Shown: positions 11,191 through 39,901, counted from the first letter of the stretch. The stretch is DNA of 64,000 bases from an uncultured Methanoregulaceae archaeon (GCA_963841015.1 CAWJAX010000003.1:576001-640000), one strand, 5' to 3'. The notes: generated from the letters alone by a model not told the origin. Numbers and translations: made by a program.

Positions 11191-11964
11191 TTATTCTGAT
11201 TTTTCTTGTCTTTCGTGCGCACGTTTTTGGATTATCTTAGCAAGATTCAGCACAGCAACACGGGCAGGACTGTCAAACGGGATCTGTGAAACCGGTGTGG
11301 CCGCAAGATCCGCGGTTTCGACGTGGGGATCATCAGGAATTATGGCTATAGGTTTTTCATTGCCAATATCAACCGGTGCAGTACCTGATTTGAAACGGTT
11401 GAAAACAATCTGAATTCGTTCCGGTTCAAGCCCAAGCTGCGTTGCGATATCCTTAATGCGGGCAATTGTACGCAATCCCCGTGCACCAGGATCACTCACA
11501 ATGAGCAGCATATCCGGTTTTCCGATCGTTCCCCTGCTGATATGCTCCATGCCAGCCTCTGTATCAATGATGATAAAACGGTAATCGCGCTCAAGCTGAA
11601 TCATACATTCTGAGAGCAGGTCATTGGCAAAACAATAACAACCGCTCCCCTCCGGTCGGCCCATTGCTACAAGATCAAAACCCTTCGCTTCGACAAGAGC
11701 CTGCCGAAACCGGAACCTGACATAGTCGTGGCGATTCATGCCCGGGGGAATATGACGGGTGAATGCTTCCTCCCGCATGCTCCCCAGGGTTTCGTGGACA
11801 GTAACACCCAGCGCTTCATGCAGGTTGGCATTCGGGTCCGCATCGACTGCAAGAACAGGAGTTTCTGCCAGATCAATAAGCGAATGGATCAGCAGTGAAC
11901 TGATTGTGGTCTTGCCGGTTCCTCCTTTTCCTGACAAGGCGATGGTAAAGGGATGTTTTAGCAT
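11191..11964 (-). CDS. cooC: CooC/AcsF-type nickel-insertion ATPase
   Basis: SGKGGTGKTT deviant Walker A, DADPNANL, MGRPEGSGCYC (CxC Ni site), DTEAGMEHISRGT. Confidence 0.9.
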   Translation of the reverse strand: MLKHPFTIALSGKGGTGKTTISSLLIHSLIDLAETPVLAVDADPNANLHEALGVTVHETLGSMREEAFTRHIPPGMNRHDYVRFRFRQALVEAKGFDLVAMGRPEGSGCYCFANDLLSECMIQLERDYRFIIIDTEAGMEHISRGTIGKPDMLLIVSDPGARGLRTIARIKDIATQLGLEPERIQIVFNRFKSGTAPVDIGNEKPIAIIPDDPHVETADLAATPVSQIPFDSPARVAVLNLAKIIQKRAHERQEKSE

Positions 11965-11993
11965 ACTATGTCCTGTTTGGTTCTGACGCAGGG

Positions 11994-13035
11994 TTATGCT
12001 CCGGTTTCTTTATCCCGTATTCGTCGGGATATCTCAGCTGCGGTTTTCATGATGGCAAGGGAACCATTCCGGTCAGCAAAACGTATCCCGCAGCTGGGTG
12101 TGATGAGAGACTGTGCGTCAAAAAGGTGTTCCGGCATGCATGAGCATAGACGGGTCCTGATAGCAAGATACTTCTGATAGAGGGTTTCGAGGTTCTCGGC
12201 AGCAAAGATTTTGTATTCTGCCGGGACAATCCCCCATGCCACAACCCCACCCTGCTCCATATCAGCTTACAATGGAATCAGCGTACAGCAAAAATTCCTT
12301 TGCTGTTGCGTAAGCATCGACAGATACAACTGAAGGATTGAGCCCCAGCACAAATTCCCAGTCCGTATTCGAGCAGCAGTGTATCCCAAGCCCACCTTCA
12401 ACCAGTGCAGCAATGTCTTCCCAGCCTGCTCGTACGGTTTCTTTATCGACTGGCACCACTGAAGATCCCAGTGATGCAAGATATGGCTCATTCAAAACAA
12501 CGAGTGTTTCTGTAACGCCGGTTCTTTTTCTCATCTCACTCTCACACCATCGTGCCTTGAGTGCAATCATTTTCGACAGCACATCAGCAAGCTGCGTATC
12601 ATAGTAAATCGGGCGTTTGTTGGCATCGACAACCTGCATGCCAAAGGTGACCGGCCCGGTGACCTGGCATTTCAGCACCTTCGCATGAGACAGGGAATGA
12701 GACATCATTTCGATAAAACCGGATGCATATTCCTTATGCAGTCCGTAGGGGATGTAATTGCCCTCAACATAATCCATGTATACCTGTTCCATCGCCTCTG
12801 TCTGATCCGTTGTACTGTCAAAAAGAAGCCGGTCATCCCTGATGATCCTTCCTGGCAACTGCTCGGAATCATTAAAGACAATACTTTCCAGCTGACCCCG
12901 ATCCGGAAGGGTAGGCACATACGGAAACTCGGCAAAGATCTCCAGAACATCACTGCATGCTGCCGCCGGATCCGTATGGGGAAGCGCACCTACGCCGGTT
13001 GCCAGAGAGTGGGGAGATGGGATCATCTTTGCCAT
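11994..13035 (-). CDS. Core (single-domain, folate-independent) methionine synthase, MesB-like; one +1 frameshift near 12262
   Basis: TGVGALPH, KCQVTGPVT, LNEPYL, IHCC (Zn ligands), WGIVP, ITPSCG (third Zn ligand) of the MetE catalytic barrel. ORFs 12262..13158 and 11994..12260 join after deleting one base (IVSYMEQGG). Start ATG at 13035 lies 4 nt after the upstream stop. Confidence 0.8.
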
Positions 13036-13039
13036 AAAT

Positions 13040-14941
13040 TTACTTCCTCCTGAGCCGACAGGATTCGAGGAGTTTCTGGACCCTGGGGAACATGGTGAGA
13101 TCCGTGTGAGGTAAAAATGTACTTGAAGTGTACTCATCCATAAATGATGCCTCCGCATTCAGTTCGATGTACGCAATTTTACCGGCGATCTCATCGAGGG
13201 TTTTTCTCTCTCTCCGGTTAATAAGCGCAAGATTTGCGCCCGTAACTGCCCCGTTGCCGATATTTTTAATCCGATCTGCGTCTATCTCCGGGATCAGGCC
13301 AATAATTGTCGCATTTTTCTTGTCCAGATAATTGCCAAATGCACCGGCTACATAGATAGTAGCGATTTCGTGTCGGGTCACCCCCGCCTGTTTCATCAGC
13401 GTTACACAGGCAGCATGAATCGAAGCCTTGCTCATGATCAGGTTTTTGATATCATTTTCAGTGATTACGATATCTTTTCCGATATCGGTCTCACTGGCCC
13501 AGACTACAACATACTCCGGGAAATGAGGACCTGTGCGGATTCTTTTGTTTTCCAAGCTGGAATTTATCCTTCCGGTCCGGTCAATGACGCACGCTGAAAA
13601 AAGTTCTGCAACCAGGTCGATTAATCCGGATCCGGTAATGCCCCGTGGTTTGATGTTGTTTATTGTGCTGAAATGAGGATCGAGGGTCACGGGGTTGACC
13701 TCAATCTTCTCTATTGCACCGGGATTTGCCCGCATACCAAAGAGCACTTCACCTCCTTCAAGTGCCGGTCCGGCAGCACCGGCACAGGAAAACATCCATT
13801 CTTTGTTACCGAGCACAATCTCGAAGTTGGTGCCGATATCGATTAAAAGCGAGACCTCTTCGCGTTCATGCATACCGCAGGAAAGGATGTCAGCGATAAT
13901 GTCCCCCCCGATAAAATCGCTGACAGCAGGAAAGGCAAAGAGCCCGCTATTCTGATTAATGGCAATGCCAATCCTTGCTGCCGCTACAGACAGAGCCCGC
14001 TGAACTACCGGAACATAGGGCTCCGCGATAATATACGCTGGATCTATCCCGAGAAGCATATGCGTCATTACCGTATTACCAGCAACCACCACTTCATAAA
14101 TATCCTCACGGTCGATACCCGCGGTATTTGCAGCAGAGGTAAGTGCTGCATTGATGCTCTCTACAGCGAGGGCCTGGAGTTTTGTAAGCCCGTTTTTCCG
14201 GGCAAAATTCACGCGTGCGAGGATATCTTCTCCACAGCTGATCTGCCGGTTATAGTTCGAGGCAACAGCAACTACCTTGCCATCCACCAGATCCCAAAGA
14301 TAAACAACTACCGTCGTAGACCCGAGATCTATCGCAGCACCATAAATATGTTTTGAGGTATCATTCTCCTGGAGATCAATAAGGCGGTAGCCGCCCGGGA
14401 CGAGGGCAATTGTCCCGGTAACTTTCCAGTCACTATGACGAAGGAGTGTCGGGATTTCACGCATTACTTCAAGAGGTACATAAATTTTCTCTGCAACAGG
14501 CCCGCCACTTTTCTGGATACCCCATAAAAGCCGGGTGAGATCCGGTGATGGATCGGTGAGTGTTGGTGGCTGGAGCTCGACATAATATTTTCTGACAGAT
14601 GGATGAATCTCTATGCCGGTATCCCGGCCTGCGATCAGAATTTTTTGTTCCTGGATCAGGGTACTCTCGGGAACCAGAACCTGCAAATCGCCTTGCACTA
14701 TAGTTGTACAAGCAAGACATGCCCCTTTTTTCAGTTCATCCTCGTTAAAAAACTGCGAATATTTCTGCCGGTCAAATTCCGTTTTTCCTGATTGTACATA
14801 GACAACACACTTGCCACATTTTCCCTGTCCGCCGCAGACAACATTTATGTTCAGTCCTGCTCTCTGGGCAGCATCAAGAATAGTGCTGCCACGTGCTACG
14901 TCAATTTTGCGATAACTCGGAAGAAAGGTTACCGTGCGCAT
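13040..14941 (-). CDS. ATP-dependent reductive activator of corrinoid proteins (RACo/AcsV; 2Fe-2S + ASKHA, DUF4445)
   Basis: N-terminal CGGQGKCGKC...LAC ferredoxin; AIDLGSTTV, IDIGTNFE, AGPALEG, GITGSG, AGAFG motifs. Confidence 0.92.
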   Translation of the reverse strand: MRTVTFLPSYRKIDVARGSTILDAAQRAGLNINVVCGGQGKCGKCVVYVQSGKTEFDRQKYSQFFNEDELKKGACLACTTIVQGDLQVLVPESTLIQEQKILIAGRDTGIEIHPSVRKYYVELQPPTLTDPSPDLTRLLWGIQKSGGPVAEKIYVPLEVMREIPTLLRHSDWKVTGTIALVPGGYRLIDLQENDTSKHIYGAAIDLGSTTVVVYLWDLVDGKVVAVASNYNRQISCGEDILARVNFARKNGLTKLQALAVESINAALTSAANTAGIDREDIYEVVVAGNTVMTHMLLGIDPAYIIAEPYVPVVQRALSVAAARIGIAINQNSGLFAFPAVSDFIGGDIIADILSCGMHEREEVSLLIDIGTNFEIVLGNKEWMFSCAGAAGPALEGGEVLFGMRANPGAIEKIEVNPVTLDPHFSTINNIKPRGITGSGLIDLVAELFSACVIDRTGRINSSLENKRIRTGPHFPEYVVVWASETDIGKDIVITENDIKNLIMSKASIHAACVTLMKQAGVTRHEIATIYVAGAFGNYLDKKNATIIGLIPEIDADRIKNIGNGAVTGANLALINRRERKTLDEIAGKIAYIELNAEASFMDEYTSSTFLPHTDLTMFPRVQKLLESCRLRRK

Positions 14942-15061
14942 GATGATCTGACCTTAACATTACCATTGGTAAGAGAGATAAGAAATATGCTACGGTGATT
15001 ACCCTGCCGTTTTTTAAAAATATAATGCAAATACCCGACAGAAATTTTTTACCCTGGGTTT

Positions 15062-16405
15062 TCAGGATTCAGGCTTCTTCCACTCCTCATGCAGATATTC
15101 TCCGATTTCTGCTGCATCGCGGGGTCCGACCATCACCTTCCAGCCGGTTGCTTCTTCAATCCTGCCTGACAGCGGTGCGGAATAGCCCGGGATAATCAGC
15201 GTTTTGTGAGACACTTCCTGCTCGACACTAAATTTCCTGATCGAATCACGCACCAGCGTTTCATTCAGTTTTCCTGCAGCTACCGCAGTCAGCACTGAGA
15301 GACCTTCTGTGTCGACAATCAGCATAAAACAGGGAATGCGGGTGGACTCCAGGTAACCCTGGAGAGTAAAAAATGTCAGAGAGAAATTCACCGTCAGGAG
15401 AACCGGGGCATCTTTTCCCGGGGTTCCTACACGGTACAGTCCGGGATTCATCTGGATCGGTTTCTGGGGATCCGTGTAAATGTTCTGGCGAAGCGTCAGG
15501 GCGGCTTTGGCGGATGCAGGGGAAAGCGGCTGTGTAATAATTACCGATGCATATTTAACGATGCCCAGTGCGATTTCAGCATCCTGAAGAGGAGGCTGTG
15601 TGGCATCCATAAACACGGGATACCCAAGATCCGGTACTGTACGCGTGATTGCCAGCTGCCGGACAGAGGTTGATGTAATAACAAAATCACCAAGGGATTG
15701 CGGGCAAAGATCCATGACCAGTTTCTTTACCCCTTCACCAACACAGTTTTTTACAAGACAGGTAAGGTTCTCCAGTCCATGAGCCTTAATGACAAGAGGA
15801 CAACTGTGTTTTTTGGCGAGAGCACATATTTCCCTGAAATTTTCATTCGTGGCTGCGTGAAGCAGGGGTTGATAGCTGCCGACCTGAATAAGAGCCTCAT
15901 TAAACGCTTCGATATTCCTTGATATCAGCACGAGAGGGAGATCTGCTGATTCCTCGACTATGGCAACAGCTCGTGCGAATACATCCGGTGAACCGCTGGT
16001 ATTTTCAATTGCAATACCATTAAACCGCAGATCGGTGCCAATACGGGTGAATGATTCGTCCCTGACCCTGACTGTTACCGAAGTGATCTCTTCAGGTGAC
16101 CAGGTATCTGATACCCTGAAGAGGATCCCCGGAGGATGATAGAAGGTCTTGTCATGGCGGTAAAGCACAAATTCCTCACCAACAGCAAACGACCGTTCTC
16201 CCACACCAACGTTAACCAGCTGTATGGGGGGCCGCGTGGTTGCACCCAGCACAGACTTTGCCTGTTCGTCAAGATACGGGCAGAGATCCACATCCGCTTT
16301 TCCGCTGGCGAGCTTCATCGCAAACGTAAGGCAGGTGGGATCGCCACATTCCTTGCAGTTCTTTTTCGGCAGAAGTTTGTAGACATCAAGTGCTTTGAGC
16401 GCCAT
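15062..16405 (-). CDS. acsC: Corrinoid iron-sulfur protein large subunit (AcsC/CdhE)
   Basis: LPKKNCKECGDPTCLTFA...CPY [4Fe-4S] motif; LRQNIYTDPQKP; NFSLTFF; GLSVLTA; VGPRDA. Confidence 0.93.
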   Translation of the reverse strand: MALKALDVYKLLPKKNCKECGDPTCLTFAMKLASGKADVDLCPYLDEQAKSVLGATTRPPIQLVNVGVGERSFAVGEEFVLYRHDKTFYHPPGILFRVSDTWSPEEITSVTVRVRDESFTRIGTDLRFNGIAIENTSGSPDVFARAVAIVEESADLPLVLISRNIEAFNEALIQVGSYQPLLHAATNENFREICALAKKHSCPLVIKAHGLENLTCLVKNCVGEGVKKLVMDLCPQSLGDFVITSTSVRQLAITRTVPDLGYPVFMDATQPPLQDAEIALGIVKYASVIITQPLSPASAKAALTLRQNIYTDPQKPIQMNPGLYRVGTPGKDAPVLLTVNFSLTFFTLQGYLESTRIPCFMLIVDTEGLSVLTAVAAGKLNETLVRDSIRKFSVEQEVSHKTLIIPGYSAPLSGRIEEATGWKVMVGPRDAAEIGEYLHEEWKKPES

Positions 16406-16407
16406 TG

Positions 16408-17364
16408 CTATTTCACCTCTGAAAAAGCCGCAACGCTTCTCATGTCAGTAAACGCTTTTTTTAGCAAACCGACCGTTTTTGGATGACGGACACAGATAAT
16501 CTCGGCACCGGCAACGGCAGCGGCAATCCCCGTATAAAATTCCCACTGGATGGCCATCTCATCCTGCAGGGCAGGCTCAGATTCCCTTACTTCTTTTATC
16601 GTAAGTGAATCGATAGCAGAACAGATTACCGGCATGGCAAGATCGGTGTCCCCTTTCAGTGCAGAAAACCTGATCCGCTCCATGGCTGAATAGGAATATT
16701 CAAACCCATAACCGAGTGCACCGGTATAGGGATCGATCATAATATGATCGTGTTGCACCCCAATCTCCCTCAGCAGGATATTGAGTTGCTTTGCGAGGTT
16801 GACATCAATGGGAGACTGGGCAATTAGTGAGTGGTTATAGGCAAGAGCTGCTGCTGCAATACTCCGGTACCTTCCTGCCTCGGCGGTTCCCAGGAGAAGT
16901 CTTTCTCCCTGGCCGGTCTCACCACACTTCAGAAAAACCTCGCTGTCGATTTTAGGTTCATTGCTCCCTTCAATGATGAGCGGGAGACCGGTCGCTGAAA
17001 GCACGGCTTCCACGGTTTTTCCGACAGTGGAAACATCAGCAAAATTCCGCTGTCGTGTACTGGTCAGGTAAAGGCGAACCAGATCCGCCTTGTAAACCGT
17101 TTCAGCAGCCTTCGCCCAGTCATGCACATTATTTACCAGATCGCCACAGTAATTTCTGATGATCGGCGACCAGTATTCCGGGTTATCGCAGATTTCTAAT
17201 GCTACAAGTGGTGATGTAGATGCTGGGTTTCCATCAAGGAACGGGAGGGTTGTTCCCCCACCTATGCGGTAAGAAATGGATCTTGTTCCCCCTTCTGCTC
17301 TGGTGGCTCCAAGAATTACCTGACCGATAGCGCCATTCCAACCAAAATTAAGATCATATCCCAT
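16408..17364 (-). CDS. acsD: Corrinoid iron-sulfur protein small subunit (AcsD/CdhD)
   Basis: GG.TLPF, SPIDVNLAKQLN, DPYTGALGYGFEYSYSAMERIR.SAL.GD..LAMP motifs. Confidence 0.93.
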   Translation of the reverse strand: MGYDLNFGWNGAIGQVILGATRAEGGTRSISYRIGGGTTLPFLDGNPASTSPLVALEICDNPEYWSPIIRNYCGDLVNNVHDWAKAAETVYKADLVRLYLTSTRQRNFADVSTVGKTVEAVLSATGLPLIIEGSNEPKIDSEVFLKCGETGQGERLLLGTAEAGRYRSIAAAALAYNHSLIAQSPIDVNLAKQLNILLREIGVQHDHIMIDPYTGALGYGFEYSYSAMERIRFSALKGDTDLAMPVICSAIDSLTIKEVRESEPALQDEMAIQWEFYTGIAAAVAGAEIICVRHPKTVGLLKKAFTDMRSVAAFSEVK

Positions 17365-17369
17365 ACTAT

Positions 17370-17375
17370 CTCCTC
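17370..17375 (-). promoter_or_regulatory. Shine-Dalgarno-like AGGAGA/GAGGAG upstream of acsD (GAGGTGA also precedes acsC at ~16413-16419)
   Basis: Purine-rich motifs 5-9 nt upstream of the ATGs; intergenic gaps of 2-9 nt support co-translation. Confidence 0.6.
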
Positions 17376-19404
17376 ACACGAGCGGTTTCATCTGGAGTGC
17401 CGGATGTTTTACCCGTTCAAGGTAGGAGATCAGGTCTTCAATAGAGGTCGCATTTGTCTCATCCGCGATCTTGTCAAAGAGATCCGGTTTATTCTTGATC
17501 CATAAGTTTTTTTACCAGCTGGTTTTTCAGCTCCTCTTTAGCTGGAAAGGCATCCAGACAAGGCGTTCGATGCCTCCGTCTCCCTGCAGGAACCGGTCGG
17601 AGAGAATATAGTTTTTTGAGATGCCGGCAAATCCCGGTGTCTGAGCCCCACCGCCAATAGTTCCGGCAAGCGTTGAGAACGTCATCCCCGAGGGGGTGAT
17701 ACCCTTAAATTCCCGGTTGACTATCATGATCCCGTTCACTTCGGGAAGCATCAGGGCGATACATTCAAAACAGCCACAGCACGTCATCGGGTATTCCATC
17801 ACACTATACAAAGAGCAGCGGTCAATCTCGCCGTGACTTGCCTTTTTAACAAATTTGTTGACTCCTTCAAATTCCCCGTTCTGGGTGTTTATGACCGCTC
17901 CCTTTTCGATCGGCTGATTGGCACCGGAGGGTGCTATCTCATAGGCAATTTTTCCATCCAGCCAGCTTATCGCCCCGCAGAGAGCGGGGTGTTCAGGAGT
18001 GATAACGCAGACATGGTTGGGGGCAAAGGTCTGGCAGAGCGTGCAGGAATAATAGGTGTTCACCTCTGCATCCCGCATTCCTTTGATGCGTGCATCCCGC
18101 TCTGCATATACCCTCTCTGCATCTTTTTTTGCTGCCAGCACCTTTGCTTCATCGGTAATAAGCGTAACAGATACTGCATCAAGAAGCTTGGGGAAATCCA
18201 TGCGGAACTTGCTTGCCAGCAGCTTACCGATATGCTCAATTTTTACCCCTTTTGCGACGACCTCTCTGGAGATTCTCACCCAGATGATATCCCGCTGGGC
18301 AACATGCCAGGATCCTTCCCCATAATTTACAAAATTATGGATCCGCCGCTCAAGAACCGGTTCGTAATCTTTTTTCATCGTCTTCCCGGCTACATCGATG
18401 ACTATTGCAAGCGGGTAGGCACCACCCTCCTTCATCATGTCAATCTCAGGACCGATAACGGTCACCTGACCGTCGGTTATCTCGTCTGCGGAACGCATGC
18501 GCAAAAGTTCAAAGGCAGGAGACCGTCCCCCGCCAAATTCGACATACATCTCCTCTTTCCGGATGCTCTTTCCCTCAAATGCAGGTGAGCACCCCATAGG
18601 GATGGGGATGGCAGTCACATTCACCTTTATTCCTTTTTGCTCCATCCCCTGACGCACAACCTCTTCAGGAGTTGCGGGTATCCAGTCGCCTCCCTGATAA
18701 TCCCCGAGTGACAGGATGGGAAAACCAAGGACTCTCATCCCATCAACCAATGCAATTTCCTGGTCAGAAAGCCCGGGAAATGCAATCACAATCGCTTTTG
18801 CCCGTTCCTTGGCGTACGCGAGAAGACGGGATAAATCACCCGGAGTAACACCCCCAAACATCATTGCAACCCGTGCAATGACATCGACAAAATGAATCCC
18901 GTATGCCGGTGTCGAACCAAGCGGGATAAGACGATATTCGAGTCCGAGCTTCACTCCGGCATGGGAAAGGGATTTGACAATATCGCCTGCAAGGAACGTA
19001 AGCATGTATTTTTCCTGCAGTTCCCGGCAAACAGCAGAAACGCTGTCTGCACCCGGGGGGGTGCCAACAACAAGGGCAAGCCCGAGGATACTGCCATCAA
19101 CAAGGGAGTACCCAAGTTTCCGGATTATGGTGTCATCGATAAAACCGGTATAAGGAGCAGGTTCCCTGCCTTCAGCTGCTGTTTTCTCCGCAAGAATGCA
19201 TTCCGATGCAACGAGGGGATTACCATCAGTCTTTCCAAACACGGCAAGTGCTGCTTTCTGGTCATGAACAGCTATTCCGGTAAGCGCAAACGAGATGGGC
19301 AGGTGATAGGCGGTTTCGTCATAAGAAAGTGAGTGTCTGATTGTGGTGAGCATCGTTTTAAGGTGAGTTTCACCGTTTTTTTTCGCTATTCCCAAATCTG
19401 TCAT
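17374..19404 (-). CDS. acsB: Acetyl-CoA synthase, bacterial-type AcsB (with N-terminal domain); two compensating indels near 17480-17540
   Basis: AFEGKSIRK, PVLERRIH, CTLCQTFAPNHVC...LCGA, PMTCCGCFE A-cluster ligands, GGGAQTPGF. The track ORF stops at 17527, but the conserved tail PDLFDKIADETNATSIEDLISYLERVKHPALQMKPLV* continues in the original frame to TGA at 17374. Confidence 0.92.
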
Positions 19405-19815
19405 AGAATTATTCCTTCTGATTATGGGTTGCCCGGTAGTATTGATATAGTTTCGTCAAAGGGTAAGCCAGTATTTTTTTCCTCCCAGACGACAATTCAC
19501 CAGCAATTTGGTGATAACAATAGGTATCATCTCTATGCTAGCCTGTTTAACAAGAGAGTTGATAGTGAATATTTTACACAAAAATATCTATTTTTCCTCT
19601 TATCATGGTCCTGGTATTGGTAGCTGTCATTCAACCGGTGCTCGTATTATCTACTGAACGCAGGAGACAATAAAAAAAATAAGTGCGTTTTTTCGTTTTT
19701 CAGGTAATTTCTCCGTTCATGTTTGAAAAAAAGAGATATCCTGAATAATTATGATTTCTACCGTAATGTATATCGGAACTCCCATCCAAAGTTAAGGCAC
19801 ATCCGGTGGACATCT

Positions 19816-21327
19816 TTGAAGAAATTCTCCTTTATCGCCCATATGCCAGATACTCCGGGATCCCTTCACCGGGCTGCTGAGATCATCAAAAAATATGAAG
19901 GTAATATTAATCGTATACAGTATGATCGGCGCATTGACCCCGCAACCGTGTTTTATGAAGTTACAGCTTCACAAGAAGCGTTCAGGGAAATTACCCGGGA
20001 TCTTGCACTGATCGGGTATCTTCAGACGTCATTAAAACCTCAGGACTTTTTAAAGTTCTGTGTTTATCTTCCGCACCAGCCCGGTGCTCTTTATGAATTC
20101 CTGAATATTACAACATCGGTGGGAGCAAACATAGCGTTTATTGATTTTGATGATAAGGGAAGACACCCCGATCGTCTCACCGTAAGCCTGAACCTTGAGC
20201 AGAGTTCGGTTGTCGACCACATTTTAAACAAGCTGAAATCATGCTACCGTCTCGAAATCCTTGAATATGACACAACCGGAAAACACCTGGATGATACGGT
20301 TTTTTATGTCAGGTATGCCCAGGCAATACGCGAACTTATCGGGGAGTCAGAAGAAAATTTTTTACTTTCATTCCTTGCTGATACAAATCACATCGTACAG
20401 GAGCTGATGGCACAGGGGAATGATCCACGGAAAGTTTTTGAGAGTGTTCTTATAACCGGCAAGACGATGTGGGCGACAACCCGGGACAGGTTCTATGCAG
20501 ATGTCCAGAAATTTCAGATTACTGAACAATGCACCCTTTTTTGTTTCCAGGTCCCCTGTGGAGGGAATATTTTTTTGATTGCTACAGCCGAAGAAAAAAT
20601 CCTGATCGATACCGGTTACGGCATATATCACCATGACGTTCTGTCAATGCTTTCGCGGTATGGTCTTGGAGATGAACGGCAGGTATCGCGGATCATTGTC
20701 ACTCACGCAGATGCGGATCATTGCGGAGCTGCAGGGTATTTCACAGCACCGATTTTCATGCATGAAGATACTCTTGCAATCATAAAAAAGAACAACCGTG
20801 CATTTGGCTCCCGGAGCGAACATTCTATCCTTGAAGAGTTTTATACCAAGATGATCAACCTTTTCTCAAAGTTCAATACCCCGGCCAACGTAGTATGCTT
20901 CTCCCAGCAACCGGTAACGATGCGGGGAATTTTTCCGGTAATTGGTCTGGTAAGAATCGGAGATCTTGAACTGGAAGTCCTGGAAGGTCTTGGAGGCCAT
21001 ACCTGTGGACAGATCTATCTTTATTCCCGAAAAAATGGGCTGCTGTTCGCTGCAGACAGTCTGATCAACTTTTCGAGTCTCACAAAAGAGCGTGCTGAGT
21101 ACAGCTCACTTGCTGCTTTTCTTGTAACCTCGGTAAACGTGGACAGCGAACTGGCAAAAAAAGAGCGAAGAGCACTGCTTGAAATTGCTTTTGAAACTGA
21201 TAAGGCCATGTCAGCCACGGGCAAACGATGCCTTATCTGCGGAGGTCATGGAGCTGTATCAGTTCTTGAAGAGAACAAGCTTTTTTCTTATGGAACTGTT
21301 GAGCGCTATCAGCCACATACCCCATGA
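19816..21327 (+). CDS. Tandem ACT-like domains fused to an MBL-fold hydrolase (start uncertain; ORF open from 19723)
   Basis: MPDTPGSLHRAAEII...GNI and LPHQPGALYEFL...GANI ACT-like motifs; LIDTGYG, THADADHCG, GGHTCG, AD, GGHG MBL motifs. Confidence 0.75.
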   Translation: MKKFSFIAHMPDTPGSLHRAAEIIKKYEGNINRIQYDRRIDPATVFYEVTASQEAFREITRDLALIGYLQTSLKPQDFLKFCVYLPHQPGALYEFLNITTSVGANIAFIDFDDKGRHPDRLTVSLNLEQSSVVDHILNKLKSCYRLEILEYDTTGKHLDDTVFYVRYAQAIRELIGESEENFLLSFLADTNHIVQELMAQGNDPRKVFESVLITGKTMWATTRDRFYADVQKFQITEQCTLFCFQVPCGGNIFLIATAEEKILIDTGYGIYHHDVLSMLSRYGLGDERQVSRIIVTHADADHCGAAGYFTAPIFMHEDTLAIIKKNNRAFGSRSEHSILEEFYTKMINLFSKFNTPANVVCFSQQPVTMRGIFPVIGLVRIGDLELEVLEGLGGHTCGQIYLYSRKNGLLFAADSLINFSSLTKERAEYSSLAAFLVTSVNVDSELAKKERRALLEIAFETDKAMSATGKRCLICGGHGAVSVLEENKLFSYGTVERYQPHTP

Positions 21328-31011: not shown

Positions 31012-32742
31012 TTGCAATTTCTGTGAATACCCTCGGGAAAAAGTTCAAATTATACAATTCGCCGATGGGACGCTTCTTAGAGTATCTGAGTCTGGGAAAG
31101 ATGACACGCCATACCGATTTCTGGGCGCTGCAGGATCTCTCCTTTGAGATTCCCAGCGGTACAACGCTGGGAATCCTCGGGCAGAACGGTTCAGGTAAAA
31201 GTACCCTGCCTGAGCATCCTTGCAGGTGTCCTTGAACCGAGTGCTGGATCCTTTACGATTAATGGGAAAGTCTCGGCGATTCTCGAGCTGGGGTCCGGGT
31301 TCCACCCGGAGTTTTCCGGACGGGACAATGTATACATGTACGGTTCCATCATGGGGCTCTCGAAAGAGGAGATCGATAAAAGGTTTGATGAAATAGTCCT
31401 GTTTTCAGAACTGGGAGATTTCATCGACCAGCCCCTCCGCACCTACTCATCCGGCATGATCGTTCGGCTCGCATTCTCAGTCGCGGTGAATGTGGATGCA
31501 GATATCCTCATTGTAGACGAGGCACTGGCTGTCGGAGATGCCATCTTCCAGCACAGGTGCTTCCGGAAGATCAGGGAGATGCAGGCCGCTGGAAAAACAA
31601 TTTTATATGTGGGACACGATACCGAAGCGGTGAGGAATCTCTGCACATCTGCGCTCCTTCTTGATGGCGGCCGGGTCATCGAACGAGGTGATCCAAATTA
31701 TGTGGTCAATAAGTATCATGCCTTGATTACTGAACGCGAACGAGCATATACAGAAGGGAACTTAATCGAACATGGGGAGATGCCGGGCGAGGGGTACGAA
31801 ATGGTATATAATCTTGTCCAAAACTTGAACGTGGCAAAGGTTGTCAGCGCGGAGGTTGCACCTGTCCAGGTCCAAACAATTGAGATCCAGTCGACATCCC
31901 GAAAAGTGATCTTTGCTCACCCCCCATCACAGATCATGTTCTCTGTTACGATTGAACCCGGGTCATCACTTGCATTTGCTATCGGGATTATGCCATATGT
32001 GTGGGATAAGATCCCGCAGGGTGTAAAATTTGACATTGAGGTTCTCTCTGATGGAGAAACGTATAATATCTTTTCACGAGTAATTCAGCCAAAGCGGAAT
32101 ATAGGGGATCGGGGCTGGCATAATTTTATGGTCCCTCTGGAACAGTTTTCAGGAAGGACAGTATCAATTATTTTTCGGACTTCCGGGTCAGGCGATGATC
32201 TGAGTTACGGGTGGAGTGCCTGGGGGTGGGGGAAGATTGTTATTAAACCTAATCAAGAAGTAAGACCCGAGGACGTAATTACGTCTATTCATCATCCGGA
32301 GTTGAGATATGGTTCTAATAAAGTTAAAATCCAAAAAGTCGAAATTTTCGATAAGGATTATCAAGAAATAAAAAATTTTAACTCTGGAGATTTTTCAATA
32401 ATTCGAATCAGAATTAAAATATTAAATGATAATTTAAATGGCGTTTTGTCTGTAGGTTATTATCTTAATAATAAATATGTAACACTTTATGCGATGGATA
32501 CCTGGAGGAAAAAAATTTTAAATTTAAATAGCGGTGTAAATAACTCCATTGTTGTCGATTTTAAACAGAAATTAATCCTTGGATCCGGGATTTATTCTAT
32601 TACTGCAAGTGTTTCAGACGTTAATTCACGTAATGAGTTTCAAATACTGGATAGGATCGTGGATTGTTTATTCTTTAAAGTTCAATCAGAAGAAGATTTT
32701 CAAGGAATTATAAATTTAAATTCTGAAATTGAAACGCATTGA
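31008..32742 (+). CDS. wzt: Polysaccharide ABC exporter ATPase Wzt with an extra beta-domain and C-terminal Wzt_C domain; one +1 frameshift near 31209
   Basis: FWALQDLSF, GQNGSGKSTL, LELGSGFHPE.SGRDN, YSSGM..RLAF, DEALAVGD. Span 1735 nt = 3n+1. Confidence 0.88.
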
Positions 32743-32754
32743 CGTGGGGGAAAC

Positions 32755-35259
32755 ATGAATCACGATAAGGAATCAATCGATTTTTATAAAGATATGAATA
32801 TTCACCCGGTAGGAATGCCAAAACAGGACATTCCAAAATCAGCACATCTTAATATGACCGATGCAGACCTTGTGGCATTTTATTCCGAACGATACGCAGA
32901 TTTTAATTTTGCTGAGTTTTTGGAGAACGAGGGAAAAGAGCGGCTCTTTGGCTTATGTAATATGGTAAAACCCGGGGAATCTTTCCTCGATATCGGTTGT
33001 GCTGATGGAGGCCTTATGAATGTTTTGTATAAGCGTGCCATTTACGGAATAGGTCTAGATCTTGCGGTAACCAACATCCTTCGCGGGAGAGAAAAATATC
33101 CTCATCTCAAATTTATTCATGGTTTTGCAGAAGAAATTCCCTTTATCGATAAATATTTTGATGTTATTCTTCTTGGAGATATCATTGAGCATTTTAGGAA
33201 TCCCACAATTGCATTAAATGAATGTCTAAGAGTTGTAAAGAAAGGATTGATCATTTCCGTACCGATCAAAGAAGAAGTGTCAGAAGAACATATTAATCCA
33301 TTTAGCGTTGAAAAAATTTTATCGTTATTAGATCAATTCACCCTCAAAATTACATTTTTCAATATTTATGGTATTTCCATATCGAAAGATGAGGCAATTG
33401 CCAAATTAAAGACATTTCCCTGGTTATTGATACGAGCGGAAAAAAACGAGAAAACTGATGAAATCTTGAATAGGTATGAACCTTTTTTGTTGGATTTTGA
33501 AAAAAAAACACAGGACGAATTGTTACGTAAAGACCAATGGGAAAAGGGAAATTTTCATCATCGTGATCAAACTGAAATTTCCCGATTTGATTTGGTTTCC
33601 CAGTTAATAGAAGGCAATGAAGTATTAGAAATCGGGTCTGGAAATGGTGATAGTACTATAGCATTATCAAAAACAAAATGCCATGTGATTGGAATTGATA
33701 TTAGTAAAACAGGAATTATCGAAGCTCAAACATTCGCGAAACAGATTAATTTAGACATCAATCCAACTTTCGCGTTTATGAGTGGTAGTTCCCTTGCATT
33801 TAAAGAAAATTCTTTTGATACGGTAATTTTACCTGAAATTATTGAACACCTGAAAAGTCCTCGCAGAATTATTCAAGAAGCGATTCGTGTCATTCGAAAT
33901 GGTGGGAGAATTATTATTTCCGTACCAGATGGACTCATGGTACCATGGGAGGGTCATCTTAGAATATTCTTCAAGGACACATTAACAACGGAACTTGATC
34001 AATATACAAAAGAAATAACCTGGTACGAATTACCCTTTAAAAAATGGATAATTTGTAGTTTTTTTGTCACGAAAAGCGAGTCTCAAATTACCTTGGGTCC
34101 TCAAATTGATATATTAATGCCAACGTACAATGGGAAAAAAACTATTGAGCGTGCAATAAAGAGTATCATTAACCAAACTTATGAAAATTGGAATTTGATA
34201 GTTATCAATGACGGAGGTGAGGATCTTCAGAATGTTATTGAAAATTTGAATGATCCCCGGATAAAATATCTTGTAACAGATCATCACGGAAAGTCTCATG
34301 CATTGAATGTTGGAATTAAGAATTCTCATGGAAAATATATTTCATATCTTGATGATGATGATCTTCTCTATCCAATACATCTTGAAGTATTAATAAAATC
34401 TGCTGAAAACGAAAGGAAAGAATTTGTTTATGTCGATTGGTATGAGGTTTCTGTTAATGAACATGGGAAAGAATTTCAGCGAATGGTGGAATTTAGAGAA
34501 GATGTAACTCCGGAGATGCTTATAACTCAAAATTATATAAATCATAAATGTATATTACATTCACGGGAACTATTGAACAAAACCGGCTTATATGATGAAA
34601 CACTTGATATTTTAATTGATTGGGACATTATCCGAAGATTGGCTTTCCATGAAAAGCCATTTCATATCTGGTCTTTCACCAGTGAGCGTATTTGCTATTA
34701 TAAAAATAATATATTGCAGAATCGGATTTCTGGATTAGGGAAAACTGATAAAGAAAAAGTTAGTGCGTCAATAAAAAAAATTATCCATAAAACTAAAGAA
34801 TTACATGCAAAAACCGATGAATTAAATGCAGCTTTAGAGAATTCGATGGTAAATTTTTCTTATTATCATAGGGTATTTTTAAGTGAATTAAATAGTAATT
34901 TACAAACAAAAGATAATCAAATTCTGGAAATTTCAAATCAGGTTACTAACCTCAATCAGACTCTTTCGATGAGAGATAAACAACTCCAGGAAGCCGCCAC
35001 GCTTGTCACTAACCTCAACCAAAGTATTGCTGAAAAAGATCAGGAAATCAGTAAGTTGGATCAGGAAAACAGTAAGTTATTTGAACAAATCTGCATTTTG
35101 AAAGATGAGATTTCTTCATTAAAGGGTAGTATATCCTATCTGTTATTAACAAAATTCCATAAAAACATTATTGAACGAGTTCTTCCTAAAACCACGCGAA
35201 GAAGAAAATTTTATGATTTGGCATTAAAACGGGCAAGAATTCTTATTAATAAGGGATGA
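32755..35259 (+). CDS. Multidomain protein: two SAM methyltransferase domains + GT2 + C-terminal coiled coil
   Basis: LDIGCADG...IIEH; LEIGSGNG...IIEH; ILMPTYN, NDGG, YLDDDD, DWD; heptad-rich tail. Confidence 0.82.
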   Translation: MNHDKESIDFYKDMNIHPVGMPKQDIPKSAHLNMTDADLVAFYSERYADFNFAEFLENEGKERLFGLCNMVKPGESFLDIGCADGGLMNVLYKRAIYGIGLDLAVTNILRGREKYPHLKFIHGFAEEIPFIDKYFDVILLGDIIEHFRNPTIALNECLRVVKKGLIISVPIKEEVSEEHINPFSVEKILSLLDQFTLKITFFNIYGISISKDEAIAKLKTFPWLLIRAEKNEKTDEILNRYEPFLLDFEKKTQDELLRKDQWEKGNFHHRDQTEISRFDLVSQLIEGNEVLEIGSGNGDSTIALSKTKCHVIGIDISKTGIIEAQTFAKQINLDINPTFAFMSGSSLAFKENSFDTVILPEIIEHLKSPRRIIQEAIRVIRNGGRIIISVPDGLMVPWEGHLRIFFKDTLTTELDQYTKEITWYELPFKKWIICSFFVTKSESQITLGPQIDILMPTYNGKKTIERAIKSIINQTYENWNLIVINDGGEDLQNVIENLNDPRIKYLVTDHHGKSHALNVGIKNSHGKYISYLDDDDLLYPIHLEVLIKSAENERKEFVYVDWYEVSVNEHGKEFQRMVEFREDVTPEMLITQNYINHKCILHSRELLNKTGLYDETLDILIDWDIIRRLAFHEKPFHIWSFTSERICYYKNNILQNRISGLGKTDKEKVSASIKKIIHKTKELHAKTDELNAALENSMVNFSYYHRVFLSELNSNLQTKDNQILEISNQVTNLNQTLSMRDKQLQEAATLVTNLNQSIAEKDQEISKLDQENSKLFEQICILKDEISSLKGSISYLLLTKFHKNIIERVLPKTTRRRKFYDLALKRARILINKG
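35038..35079 (+). repeat. 21-nt tandem duplication encoding two heptads (DQEISKL/DQENSKL)
   Basis: GATCAGGAAATCAGTAAGTTG followed by GATCAGGAAAACAGTAAGTTA. Confidence 0.85.
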
Positions 35260-35492
35260 ATTCGTTTCAGGCAATAATTCAATGAAAAAAGGTTACATGA
35301 ACGTATACTATAGAAAAAGAAAAGGATCGTCTTATGTGAGGTGTTCGAATCAAGATTTTCTCAAAATAGGAAAATTCAGTTTCTGAACCAAGTCCTTCTG
35401 CATGATTTGGTCTCTTTCCAAAAAAATATTGAAATTTTAATGGATTTCAAGATTATTGTTCGGAATAGAAAAATACTATTACTAGAAAATAT

Positions 35493-36272
35493 ATGAATAT
35501 GAAATTTATTGAACGTTTTTTTCCTAAGGATCATATTTCTTTACCGGATGAAAAATTGCAGATATCCGTAGGAGGGGGGTTTGATTCTGCCGGAAAAGAA
35601 TTTTTGAACCATTTTATTTCAATGGGTGAGTTGAAACCCTATGAAGCAATATTAGATGTTGGTTGTGGTTGTGGAAGGATGAGTCTTCCTCTTACCACAT
35701 ATCTTAATAACAAGGGTCGTTATGATGGGTTCGATATTGTCAAGGAAAGTGTAGCATGGTGTCAACAAAACATCTCCAAAAAATATCCCAATTTTAATTT
35801 TAAGCATTCGGATATATATAATAAAGAATATAATAAGAATGGTAAAATAAACTCCAGAGATTTTATTTTTCCTTACGATGATAATTCATTTGATTTCATT
35901 TTTTTAACTTCTGTTTTTACGCATATGCTTCCTGAGGATATGGAACACTATTTTTCGGAAATATCGAGGACATTAAAGAATGGGGGTAGATGCCTCATAT
36001 CATTTTTCCTCTTAAATGAAGAATCAAGATTATTGATGAAAGAAAAACCCCAGCAACTAAAATTTGAATTTGACCAGGAAATATTTCGGACAATCGATGC
36101 GGATATACCTGAAAAAGCAATCAGTTATGATGAAAAGTATATCAAACAAGTGTATTTGAAGAATAATATTCGTATTAAATACCCGATTCATTATGGTTTT
36201 TGGTGCTCCAGATCAACCCATTTAAGTTACCAGGATATAATTATTGGAATTAAAGACATTTCAAAATCATAA
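35493..36272 (+). CDS. Class I SAM-dependent methyltransferase
   Basis: ILDVGCGCGR, FDFIFLTSVFTHM, LK.GG. Confidence 0.88.
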   Translation: MNMKFIERFFPKDHISLPDEKLQISVGGGFDSAGKEFLNHFISMGELKPYEAILDVGCGCGRMSLPLTTYLNNKGRYDGFDIVKESVAWCQQNISKKYPNFNFKHSDIYNKEYNKNGKINSRDFIFPYDDNSFDFIFLTSVFTHMLPEDMEHYFSEISRTLKNGGRCLISFFLLNEESRLLMKEKPQQLKFEFDQEIFRTIDADIPEKAISYDEKYIKQVYLKNNIRIKYPIHYGFWCSRSTHLSYQDIIIGIKDISKS

Positions 36273-36491
36273 TCCAGATGCGCAAAAACCTTTTCTTTTA
36301 TTTAGTTTCATGACTTAAGACTGGTTCCAAATTGAAGATCATTTTTGGTCACTCGCTACAAAATTGACTGAAAGGATTCATATTAGTCGTTTCAGGGATT
36401 ACAAATTAAAATCGATTAGAGAGTTTCATGGGGATTTAATTTCTTTTTGTTTTTTTCGGTTTTTGCAAAATATTATGATATTTTTCCTTTG

Positions 36492-37415
36492 TTATGCTTG
36501 ATCTTTTTTACTTTTTTGATACATTAACTGACCCTTTTTATAATAATAATTCATGATAGTATCAACCTCTCGGAAACTTATCCAGTTTAAAAATCTGTCC
36601 GTAAATGAAAAAAGATATTTTAATACCAAAACCAACAGGGTTTTCCTGATTCCATCTGGTTTTAAGGTGTCAGTGATTTTGAGAAAATTTTTTAATTCTG
36701 GGTGCAATTCAGAAAAAATACCACTGGAATACCCACATTTAATTTGCCGTTCACAGAAGGATAGAATGTTGATATTGTGATCATGATACGCCAAAGCTTT
36801 TTCATTATATATTATTTTCAGACCTTTTTGAGCAAGGCGGTACCCCAATTCGGTGTCTTCCCATGCAGCAAAAGGGAACGTTTCATCAAATTTATTTCGC
36901 AATAAACAAGATGTGTTCAATGAAATATTCGACGTGTAAAAGAAGTTAAAAGGAACTATATCATTATGTTTGATTAAAGAATAACCAAATTGCAATCCAT
37001 ATTCCTGGATATAATTCATGAATGGTGTAATTTTTATATCTGAAATCCAGACTGTTTTTCCCAAAACTGCAATGTTTCGTGAATATTGATAGTTCTGATG
37101 AGTAAGGATGTGCTCTTTCAATAATGACTCAGAAGGAATAATATCATCGCCAGTTATTAAAACAAGGCGTGTTGTAACCTCATCAATTCCAACATTTCGA
37201 GCAACTCCAGGCCCTGAATTCGTCTTTTTACGGTATTTTAGTTTCATATCAGGGTGATTTAAAATAAAAACGTGAACCATTTCTTCTGTATTATCGGTAG
37301 AGCCATCATCTACAATAATTATTTCAAAGAAAAATTCCTTAAGTTTGTAATACGCACTTAACGTTTTATTGAGGGTAGATGACCGATTGTATGTTGGAAT
37401 TATTATACTAATCAT
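36492..37415 (-). CDS. Glycosyltransferase family 2
   Basis: ISIIIPTYNR, VDDGSTD, ARNVG, GDD, WEDTELGYRL. Confidence 0.9.
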   Translation of the reverse strand: MISIIIPTYNRSSTLNKTLSAYYKLKEFFFEIIIVDDGSTDNTEEMVHVFILNHPDMKLKYRKKTNSGPGVARNVGIDEVTTRLVLITGDDIIPSESLLKEHILTHQNYQYSRNIAVLGKTVWISDIKITPFMNYIQEYGLQFGYSLIKHNDIVPFNFFYTSNISLNTSCLLRNKFDETFPFAAWEDTELGYRLAQKGLKIIYNEKALAYHDHNINILSFCERQIKCGYSSGIFSELHPELKNFLKITDTLKPDGIRKTLLVLVLKYLFSFTDRFLNWISFREVDTIMNYYYKKGQLMYQKSKKDQA

Positions 37416-39138: not shown

Positions 39139-39294
39139 ATCATCAATCCAAGAAATTCATCTGTATCTGAAAATGAAAAATATTACAAAATGCTATAGTA
39201 TACATATTTTCGTTTAGGCTGATATAATTTTTTTAGGTATTAATTGACTCCGTTGACATCCTTGTCAGGGCATATGATTTTTTCTTTTTTCAGG

Positions 39295-39720: not shown

Positions 39721-39901
39721 ATCAGTGACTAAGTTAAGGATTTTTTTTTCACAACTACCAAAGATCGATGTAATCGGACTAATATTTACCGGAAATCTAT
39801 TGGGGTTTTAACCATCCTGAAGATTCGAATATTATCCGAAGAGTTTTCATGTTTATTAACACACACATTGTAACGATTATGGGTTCCTTTAGGTGCACTC
39901 C

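What the first reader, a model, noticed from the sequence alone, without database searches (positions are those of the whole stretch)
11191..19404. Self-contained acsB-acsD-acsC-RACo-core methionine synthase-cooC operon without CODH or AcsE: candidate acetyl-CoA-to-methionine methyl shunt in a methanogen
Seen: six co-oriented genes, most separated by 2-30 nt (about 120 nt before RACo). They encode ACS, both CoFeSP subunits, the corrinoid reactivase, a single-domain methionine synthase and the Ni insertase. No CODH (acsA/cooS/cdhA/cdhB) and no acsE methyltransferase lie in or beside the operon. Established: ACS is reversible; core methionine synthases take their methyl group from a methyl-corrinoid protein rather than folate; Dehalococcoides mccartyi uses an incomplete Wood-Ljungdahl pathway to cleave acetyl-CoA for the methionine methyl and releases CO. 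Inference: this operon is a complete dedicated module (acetyl-CoA -> CH3-CoFeSP + CO + CoA; CH3-CoFeSP + homocysteine -> Met), so the archaeon would take its Met/SAM methyl from acetate rather than methyl-H4MPT and would emit CO. Automated annotation would probably mislabel it as autotrophic or acetoclastic ACDS. I cannot tell from the window whether this arrangement is already described in Methanomicrobiales.
Basis: partly seen in the sequence, partly recalled or inferred. Interest (0 to 1): 0.85.

Follow-up and report, generated by a model that had tools for sequence, protein, structure and literature searches.

The report
Methanogen ACS-corrinoid-MesB methyl-transfer operon
A Methanoregula-type methanogen carries a conserved six-gene operon joining a bacterial-type acetyl-CoA synthase, its corrinoid protein and a divergent core methionine synthase; the arrangement is real and was noted in print in 2021, but its function is still untested.

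Summary
Six co-oriented minus-strand genes (19404..11191) encode AcsB, AcsD, AcsC, RACo, a MesB-like zinc methyltransferase and a CooC-type ATPase. No CODH or AcsE lies nearby.

Corrections:
- The MesB-like gene is split by a 1-base insertion at 12263. All 4 public runs laid lack that base, so this is probably an assembly error.
- The genome has cooS plus a second cooC on another contig.
- It also has the standard methanogen methionine synthase MesA.

The operon is a conserved Methanomicrobiales module, found in 57 of 151 genomes. It coexists with a full archaeal ACDS in 25 of those 57, and 8 of the 57 show no CODH. It is therefore a separate system, not the autotrophic ACDS.

Price et al. 2021 already reported MesB with MesA in some Methanomicrobiales, and mesB in an operon with acsC/acsD.

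The acetyl-CoA-to-methionine reading is the most economical (about 0.5) but would be supplementary. New here: in most of the clade, including this protein, two homocysteine-binding residues are replaced (Ser to Ala, Asp to Asn), so another thiol acceptor stays possible.

Verdict: new member of a known kind, moderate interest.

The parts
17527..19404 (-). acsB: bacterial-type acetyl-CoA synthase with its N-terminal domain. The C-terminal end is probably cut short in this assembly.
   Evidence: NF040764 847 bits (cut-off 800); PF03598 and PF19436. Cys454/457/466/476 and C543-G-C545 are present (their role as A-cluster ligands is recalled). Indels at 17539 and 17495 against 4 of 4 runs. Relatives have open frames of 678-760 aa.
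16408..17364 (-). acsD: small subunit of the corrinoid iron-sulfur protein (short, bacterial-type, 318 aa).
   Evidence: NF003376 356 bits (cut-off 280); PF03599.
15062..16405 (-). acsC: large, corrinoid- and Fe-S-binding subunit of CoFeSP.
   Evidence: NF003195 539 bits (cut-off 306); PF03599 and PF04060.
13040..14941 (-). RACo: ATP-dependent reductive activase of the corrinoid protein.
   Evidence: PF14574, PF17651, PF17650 and PF00111 all above cut-off. NF040756 AcsV 570 bits, below its 800 cut-off.
11994..13035 (-). MesB-like zinc thiol methyltransferase (core methionine synthase superfamily). One gene, read here as two ORFs (13035..12262 and 12260..11994) because of one extra base at 12263.
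   Evidence: Relatives are 346 aa and intact, e.g. P0001 at 98% identity. 4 of 4 runs lack the base. AF2 model of P0001 has pLDDT 95.7; best Foldseek matches are MetE structures, E 9e-8. hhalign to the genome's own MesA gives probability 97-99%. H219, C221, D240 and C315 are conserved.
11191..11964 (-). CooC/AcsF-type P-loop ATPase, a putative nickel insertase for ACS.
   Evidence: PF01656 and PF13614. A C-x-C motif at residues 109-111 (its role as metal site is recalled). Conserved last gene of the operon. No specific NCBIfam model matched.
19405..19722 (.). Intergenic region between acsB and the divergent ACT+MBL-fold gene; presumed promoter region.
   Evidence: ORF map. No promoter test was run, because the scan tool does not cover archaeal promoters.

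Best explanation
This is one operon for a self-contained corrinoid methyl-transfer module. It was acquired once by Methanomicrobiales and is separate from the archaeal ACDS.

Proposed mechanism:
- AcsB, matured by the CooC/AcsF-like ATPase, interconverts acetyl-CoA with CH3-Co(III)-CoFeSP + CO + CoA.
- RACo re-reduces the CoFeSP (AcsC/AcsD) when it becomes oxidised.
- The MesB-like zinc enzyme moves the methyl group from CoFeSP to a thiol. By homology that thiol is most probably homocysteine, giving methionine.

This genome has no AcsE, no spare MtrH and no archaeal CdhD/E, so acetyl-CoA is the only evident methyl source for this CoFeSP. The net flow would be acetyl-CoA to the Met methyl, as proposed for Dehalococcoides. 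The CO could be oxidised by the distant CooS.

The route is supplementary, because MesA is always present.

Shown: gene identities, the conserved order, the fold, the zinc ligands, and the phyletic pattern.
Inferred: the direction of flux, the thiol acceptor, and the fate of CO.
For: - Gene identities above curated cut-offs.
- The A-cluster cysteine pattern is intact.
- All six genes lie in the same order in 32 of 39 Methanomicrobiales loci; the other 7 are cut by contig ends.
- The MesB-like gene is in 57 of 151 genomes of the order and 12 of 12 in the window's genus. Only G000 has a stop inside it.
- 25 of the 57 also have archaeal cdhA. Where cdhA and the operon co-occur there are two CdhC genes, one of about 470 aa beside cdhA and one of about 690 aa in this operon. 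The operon is therefore not the ACDS.
- 8 of the 57 have neither cooS nor cdhA. These include G004 (1 contig, 99% complete), G035, G076, G084 and G110.
- In G000 there is no AcsE, a single MtrH, no CdhB, and only the operon's own CdhD-family genes.
- The MesB-like protein has a MetE fold and aligns to MesA. It keeps the H-C-D-C zinc ligands.
- 30 of 54 family members match the MesA model NF002119. JGI names its bacterial relatives cobalamin-independent methionine synthase II.
- Price 2021 proposes CoFeSP as the methyl donor of MesB and cites acetate-C2 labelling of the Met methyl in D. mccartyi (PMC7857596, section 8).
- Contigs of an RNA library cover 29 of 30 bins of the operon.
Against: - MesA is present here and in 122 of 122 high-quality genomes. 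A hydrogenotroph has ample methyl-H4MPT, so an acetate-derived Met methyl has no evident need.
- The window's protein has Ala and Asn where MetE/MesA/MesB have the homocysteine-binding Ser433 and Asp599. In the 39 archaeal loci position 17 is A in 24, G in 6, S in 7 and unread in 2; position 182 is N in 31, S in 3, D in 4 and gapped in 1. The 41 bacterial loci have S in 37 and D in 40.
- The protein itself matches no methionine synthase model.
- The genome does have cooS-cooC, and AcsB keeps the N-terminal domain that docks on CODH in bacteria. A synthetic direction is therefore not excluded.
- No labelling, enzyme assay or transcript data exist for this module.
- The RNA-library contigs do not prove transcription.
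Confidence: 0.5

Rival explanations
1. Anabolic acetyl-CoA synthesis. The operon is the ACS/CoFeSP half of a bacterial-type CODH/ACS whose CODH (cooS-cooC) lies elsewhere. Methyl groups reach CoFeSP from the methanogenic C1 pool through an unrecognised methyltransferase, or through AcsD itself. The MesB-like enzyme only draws off some methyl for methionine.
For: - A cooS (TIGR01702) with an adjacent cooC-like gene lies on C4.
- 32 of the 57 operon-bearing genomes have cooS.
- In L023 cooS lies about 2 kb downstream of the operon.
- AcsB matches the bifunctional model from position 22 on, so it keeps the N-terminal domain.
- The M. formicica genome note assumes anabolic CO2 fixation by ACDS (PMC4155587, passage read).
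Against: - No AcsE, no second MtrH and no archaeal CdhD/E were found in G000.
- 25 of 57 genomes carry a complete archaeal cdhA-cdhC set as well, which makes a second synthase redundant.
- 8 of 57 have no CODH found.
- cooS is just as common without the operon (51 genomes), so the two are not linked.
Confidence: 0.2
2. In most Methanomicrobiales the MesB-like enzyme has changed substrate. It would link CH3-CoFeSP to a thiol other than homocysteine, with coenzyme M the obvious candidate. That would tie acetyl-CoA to methyl-CoM without Mtr. In one direction it is a cryptic acetate-to-methane shunt; in the other, methyl-CoM-dependent acetyl-CoA synthesis.
For: - Ser433-to-Ala/Gly and Asp599-to-Asn/Ser replacements occur in 30 and 34 of 39 archaeal loci, against 4 and 1 of 41 bacterial loci. 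The mapping is checked through MesA and 3RPD.
- The clade-wide WPQLP motif becomes xPTLP, and KGQ becomes KCQ.
- MesA already covers methionine in every high-quality genome.
- The zinc site is kept, so the substrate is still a thiol.
Against: - The earliest-branching archaeal sequences (Methanospirillaceae) keep Ser and Asp in the same operon, and one Methanoregula lineage (L018) has both back. The pocket therefore still tolerates the canonical pair.
- Asn can still hydrogen-bond an amino group.
- In M. hungatei JF-1, 13CH3-acetate gave no significant 13C in CH4 (PMC11494345, passages read). A small flux would be hidden in that experiment, and I did not verify that strain's operon.
- No CoM-binding feature was shown.
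Confidence: 0.2
3. The module is decaying in this organism: the frameshifted MesB-like gene and the split cooS are real pseudogenes.
For: - A stop lies inside the gene only in G000, among 57 genomes.
- cooS and mtrH are also split into two frames in this assembly.
Against: - 4 of 4 public runs with near-identical sequence lack the extra base at 12263. They also differ by single-base indels at 17495 and 17539, which is the pattern of long-read assembly error.
- mtrH is essential in a hydrogenotrophic methanogen, yet it is split too.
- Both halves of the gene are 98% identical to the intact P0001.
Confidence: 0.03

Closest known systems
MesB core methionine synthase with CoFeSP as proposed methyl donor (Deobald 2020 as cited in, and Price et al. 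2021, PMC7857596)
   Same: - Single-domain MetE-like barrel of about 345 aa with no folate-binding domain.
- H-C-D-C zinc ligands.
- Found only alongside AcsC/AcsD.
[quoted passage not shown]
   Different: - Only about 33-37% identical to Chloroflexota relatives.
- Forms its own archaeal clade (100/100 support).
- Not recognised by any Pfam or NCBIfam model.
- The Ser433 and Asp599 equivalents are Ala and Asn.
- The operon also holds acsB, RACo and cooC, which the passages I read do not mention.
Incomplete Wood-Ljungdahl pathway of Dehalococcoides mccartyi (acetyl-CoA cleaved for the Met methyl, CO released). Known to me through Price 2021, section 8; the original paper is recalled, not read.
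   Same: - ACS + CoFeSP + MesB, without AcsE.
- Acetyl-CoA is the only evident methyl source.
- 8 of 57 relatives also lack any CODH.
   Different: - This host is a methanogen with methyl-H4MPT, MesA and, in this genome, cooS.
- The genes form one operon here. In the 5 Dehalococcoidia genomes checked, acsB lies on a different contig from mesB or, in G151, about 900 kb away.
- 0 of 41 bacterial mesB loci had acs neighbours.
Archaeal acetyl-CoA decarbonylase/synthase (CdhABCDE)
   Same: It has homologous ACS and CoFeSP components, and annotation pipelines give these genes the cdhC/D/E names.
   Different: - No CdhA or CdhB in this genome.
- AcsB is the long bacterial type.
- AcsD is the short type.
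- RACo, the MesB-like gene and cooC are present.
- In 25 of 57 genomes the module coexists with a true archaeal ACDS.

Membership tests
MesB (core methionine synthase, Price 2021) | Close homology to the characterised D. mccartyi MesB (DET0516; the paper used 173 bits, or 130 bits for proteomes) | not tested
   I could not obtain the DET0516 sequence; no named D. mccartyi record was among the 80 loci. Proxies only: 33-38% identity to Dehalococcoidia and Anaerolineae homologues, and phmmer scores of about 150-220 bits to bacterial representatives.
MesB (core methionine synthase, Price 2021) | MetE C-terminal-type barrel with no folate-binding domain | tested here: met
   346 aa. AF2 pLDDT 95.7. 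The top Foldseek matches are MetE structures (E 9e-8 to 1e-5), then URO-D and MtaA-like proteins. hhalign to MesA gives probability 97.4 (local) and 98.7 (global).
MesB (core methionine synthase, Price 2021) | Zinc ligands H-C-(D/E)-C | tested here: met
   H219, C221 and D240 are invariant and C315 is at least 90% conserved in 54 sequences. HCC, D and C are read in all 39 archaeal loci.
MesB (core methionine synthase, Price 2021) | Homocysteine-binding Ser433 and Asp599 equivalents ('mostly conserved' in MesB) | tested here: not met
   The window protein has A17 (GVGALP) and N182 (NEPY). The D599 mapping runs through MesA and 3RPD. The S433 mapping comes from global hhalign to the GSYP motif of MesA. 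4 of 39 archaeal loci keep both S and D.
MesB (core methionine synthase, Price 2021) | Genome encodes AcsC and AcsD | tested here: met
   Both lie in the same operon.
Bacterial-type acetyl-CoA synthase AcsB | Scores above the curated cut-off of the bifunctional alpha/beta model, N-terminal domain included | tested here: met
   NF040764 847.4 bits (cut-off 800), model positions 13-652 of 705.
Bacterial-type acetyl-CoA synthase AcsB | A-cluster cysteines: four Cys plus a Cys-Gly-Cys motif (motif recalled) | tested here: met
   C454, C457, C466, C476 and C543-G-C545.
CoFeSP (AcsC/AcsD) | Both subunits score above curated cut-offs | tested here: met
   AcsC: NF003195 538.6 bits against 306. AcsD: NF003376 356.2 bits against 280.
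RACo / AcsV corrinoid activase | 2Fe-2S ferredoxin, linker, middle and ASKHA domains | tested here: met
   All four Pfam domains score above cut-off. The NCBIfam AcsV 'exception' model scores 570 bits, below its 800 cut-off.
CooC/AcsF nickel insertase | Specific family model, and a C-x-C metal site (recalled) | tested here: inconclusive
   Only generic P-loop families match (PF01656, PF13614; MinD-like NCBIfam hits all below cut-off). A C-x-C motif is present at residues 109-111. The operon position is conserved.
Dehalococcoides-type incomplete Wood-Ljungdahl pathway | No CODH anywhere in the genome | tested here: not met
   cooS (TIGR01702; two pieces of 362 and 278 bits) plus cooC on C4. The feature is met in 8 of 57 operon-bearing relatives.
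Dehalococcoides-type incomplete Wood-Ljungdahl pathway | No AcsE and no other methionine synthase | tested here: not met
   AcsE is absent, but MesA is present at 393 bits against a cut-off of 258.
Archaeal ACDS (CdhABCDE) | CdhA and CdhB subunits | tested here: not met
   No TIGR00314 match at E up to 1e-20 and no PF02552 match at E up to 0.001 in G000, which is 94% complete.

The most novel reading that the evidence does not exclude
In Methanoregula and most Methanomicrobiales the MesB-like enzyme may no longer be a methionine synthase. It would instead be a CH3-CoFeSP:coenzyme M (or other thiol) methyltransferase. The operon would then be an Mtr-independent bridge between acetyl-CoA and methyl-CoM. 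It could work as a cryptic acetoclastic shunt in 'strict hydrogenotrophs', or as a methyl-CoM-fed acetyl-CoA synthase that replaces AcsE chemistry in an archaeon using a bacterial ACS.
Probability: 0.17. Interest if true: 0.85.

Novelty: new member of a known kind. Interest (0 to 1): 0.48.

Why it matters
Methanoregula and its relatives are major methane producers in peat and freshwater sediment.

Annotation calls these operon genes cdhC/D/E. Published work has used them to infer a 'complete ACDS' (PMC4155587) and acetoclastic potential in Methanoregula (PMC12296737).

This survey shows the operon is a separate, bacterial-type module with its own methyltransferase. It often sits beside a true ACDS and is sometimes present with no CODH at all. 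Its presence therefore does not by itself show autotrophy or acetoclastic methanogenesis.

Finding its acceptor thiol and its direction would settle three things:
- whether these methanogens route acetate carbon into methionine/SAM, into methyl-CoM, or neither;
- whether they emit CO;
- whether Price et al.'s untested prediction that MesB draws methyl from CoFeSP holds. Cultured hosts such as Methanoregula and Methanospirillum would allow that test.

Tried and rejected
- Pfam and NCBIfam scans of the MesB-like protein and of three intact relatives gave no family, even at E up to 10.
- Sequence searches of the PDB found nothing meaningful. The single protein gave best E 1.3. The 54-sequence profile gave 3RPD at E 0.68.
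- The protein atlas gave only unnamed clusters, plus one cluster at rank 20 in which 26% of members carry PF01717. That is a lead only.
- I tried to fetch the characterised D. mccartyi MesB through a Dehalococcoidales homologue. None of the 80 loci kept was a named D. mccartyi record, so the direct bit-score test against DET0516 was not done.
- Adam et al. 2018 on CODH/ACS evolution is not held.
The frameshift verdict rests on near-identical strains.
- I found no paper describing this operon as a CODH-independent module in Methanomicrobiales in searches. Supplements were closed, so I could not see Price's S1 Table, which lists which methanogens carry MesA or MesB, or Fig. 3B.
- Pseudogene reading: rejected (see rivals).
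- I did not run complex prediction, because an enzyme paired with its carrier protein is rarely informative.

Full report
**What is there**

On the minus strand between 19404 and 11191 lie seven ORFs that make six genes.
- AcsB (625 aa) scores 847 bits on NCBIfam NF040764, the bacterial bifunctional ACS model (cut-off 800). It matches from the N-terminal domain onward.
- AcsB carries four cysteines and a Cys-Gly-Cys motif in the pattern I recall for the A-cluster.
- AcsD (318 aa, short type) and AcsC both pass curated cut-offs.
- RACo has all four of its Pfam domains.
- The last gene is a CbiA/ParA-type P-loop ATPase with a C-x-C motif. Reading it as a CooC/AcsF nickel insertase rests on context.
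The apparent 162-nt gap after acsB is discussed below.
- No CODH or AcsE lies in or beside the operon.

**The 'core methionine synthase'**

The fifth gene is read as 257 aa plus 88 aa in different frames. Relatives are single proteins of 346 aa, and P0001 is 98% identical to both halves.

Contigs of four public runs from four studies were laid on the operon. All four lack one base at 12263. All four also differ by single-base indels at 17495 and 17539, which would extend AcsB by about 50 residues. Relatives have AcsB open frames of 678 aa or more. In the same assembly cooS and mtrH are also split between frames.

I read these as assembly indels, not decay. The source reads themselves were not available; the best run held 0.59 of the sampled words.

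The protein matches no Pfam or NCBIfam model. It belongs to a large family: 1433 representatives at E up to 0.001.
- 30 of 54 sampled members weakly match the MesA model NF002119.
- JGI names the bacterial members cobalamin-independent methionine synthase II.
- An AlphaFold model (pLDDT 95.7) is most like MetE structures.
- Profile comparison with the genome's own MesA gives 97-99% probability.
- The zinc ligands H219, C221, D240 and C315 are kept.

It is a divergent MesB-type enzyme in the sense of Price et al. 2021. I could not compare it directly with the characterised DET0516.

**The rest of the genome**

G000 is 2.28 Mb in 5 contigs and 94% complete.
- A cooS with an adjacent second cooC-like gene lies on contig C4.
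- A MesA scores 393 bits against a cut-off of 258.
- The only pterin-binding protein is DHPS, so there is no AcsE.
- There is one MtrH.
- No CdhB and no archaeal CdhA were found.
- There are no AcsB or CdhD-family genes beyond the operon's own.

AcsB and the MesB-like enzyme are therefore the only evident partners of this CoFeSP.

**Distribution**

In 39 Methanomicrobiales loci (Methanoregula, Methanosphaerula, Methanolinea, Methanoculleus, Methanofollis, Methanospirillaceae), 32 hold all six genes in this order. The other 7 are cut by contig ends. None of 41 bacterial loci, mostly Chloroflexota, has acs neighbours.

In 151 genomes of the order:

| Feature | Genomes |
|---|---|
| MesB-like gene | 57 of 151 (12 of 12 in the window's genus) |
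| cooS | 83 of 151 |
| archaeal cdhA | 34 of 151 |
| CdhC | 66 of 151 |
| MesA | 146 of 151 (122 of 122 high-quality) |

Of the 57 operon-bearing genomes:
- 8 have cooS and cdhA;
- 24 have cooS only;
- 17 have cdhA only;
- 8 have neither, five of them at least 96% complete.

Genomes with both cdhA and the operon have two CdhC genes. The short archaeal one lies beside cdhA and the long one lies in this operon. The operon is thus a second system, independent of the ACDS and not tied to any CODH.

**Substrate question**

The hhalign alignment puts N182 of the Methanoregula protein opposite the Asp of the DEP motif of MesA. That Asp aligns to Asp188 of 3RPD, the Asp599 equivalent. A global alignment puts A17 opposite the Ser of the GSYP motif of MesA, the Ser433 equivalent. 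Price et al. name these two residues as the homocysteine carboxyl and amino binders (section 11).

| Loci | Ser433 position | Asp599 position |
|---|---|---|
| 39 archaeal | A 24, G 6, S 7, unread 2 | N 31, S 3, D 4, gap 1 |
| 41 bacterial | S 37 | D 40 |

A tree of 26 archaeal and 14 bacterial sequences gives one archaeal clade (100/100). Every third bacterial locus was taken, and archaeal rows covering fewer than 300 residues were dropped. The Ser/Asp-type Methanospirillaceae branch first. One Methanoregula lineage has regained both residues (the root is at the midpoint).

The change is real and clade-wide, but it is reversible within the same operon. I take it as a caution about homocysteine, not as proof of a new substrate.

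**Mechanism and rivals**

CooS may take the CO. Because MesA is universal, this would be a supplementary route, not the source of Met methyl.

Rivals:
- Anabolic acetyl-CoA synthesis with the distant CooS (0.2). It is weakened by the missing methyl-H4MPT link and by coexistence with a true ACDS.
- A different thiol acceptor such as CoM (0.2).
- Decay (0.03).

In M. hungatei JF-1, 13CH3-acetate gave no significant label in CH4 (PMC11494345, passages read). This argues against a large acetate-to-methane flux but would not detect a small one. I did not verify that strain's operon.

**Comparison with what is known**

Price et al. 2021 (PMC7857596; I read sections 8 and 11 and passages of sections 4, 7, 9, 14 and 17) state four relevant things:
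- MesB probably takes methyl from CoFeSP.
[quoted passage not shown] The core of the finding is therefore in print. My six searches did not find the following in print:
- the full six-gene composition;
- coexistence with archaeal ACDS;
- occurrence in genomes where no CODH was found;
- the replaced homocysteine ligands.

Supplements and figures were not visible. Meanwhile the genes are read as ACDS (PMC4155587) or as acetoclastic potential of Methanoregula (PMC12296737), which this analysis does not support by itself.

**Verdict**

This is a real, conserved and probably functional operon. It is a new member of a known kind (Dehalococcoides-style ACS-CoFeSP-MesB chemistry in a methanogen). Interest is moderate, because the function can be tested directly in cultured strains and it bears on how methanogen genomes are read.

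Noticed in passing
G000 C4:37959-39933 and C5:537574-538561 (outside the window); window 17495 and 17539: cooS and mtrH are each split between two reading frames. The acsB 3' end differs from all 4 runs laid by two single-base indels. The assembly seems to carry scattered 1-base indel errors, so other 'pseudogenes' in it deserve suspicion.
   Followed up: partly
window 32000-40000: A low-GC stretch (0.31-0.35, against about 0.47 elsewhere) encodes GT2 glycosyltransferases, SAM methyltransferases and a Wzt-C-domain protein, next to a UDP-glucose dehydrogenase. It is probably a surface-glycan island, possibly acquired.
   Followed up: partly
L023 13920-15830 (Methanoregulaceae UBA467): In this relative a cooS lies about 2 kb downstream of the operon's cooC. 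It is the only one of the 39 archaeal loci in which a CODH was found near the operon.
   Followed up: no
L006, L007, L043 (between acsC and RACo); L041 (between RACo and the MesB-like gene): Insertions of 1.4-3.4 kb interrupt the operon at the one long intergenic gap, or, in L041, before the MesB-like gene. Their content was not examined.
   Followed up: no
window 19723-21327 (+): A divergently transcribed gene for an ACT-domain plus metallo-beta-lactamase-fold protein lies upstream of acsB. It is conserved there in most Methanoregula loci. Its function is unknown, and it could be a regulator or an accessory protein.
   Followed up: no
P0289, P0292: In a Thermodesulfobacteriota MesB cluster, two proteins of 249-250 aa named 'CO dehydrogenase maturation factor' are filed with MesB sequences. 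This hints that mesB and cooC are adjacent or overlapping in some bacteria too.
   Followed up: no
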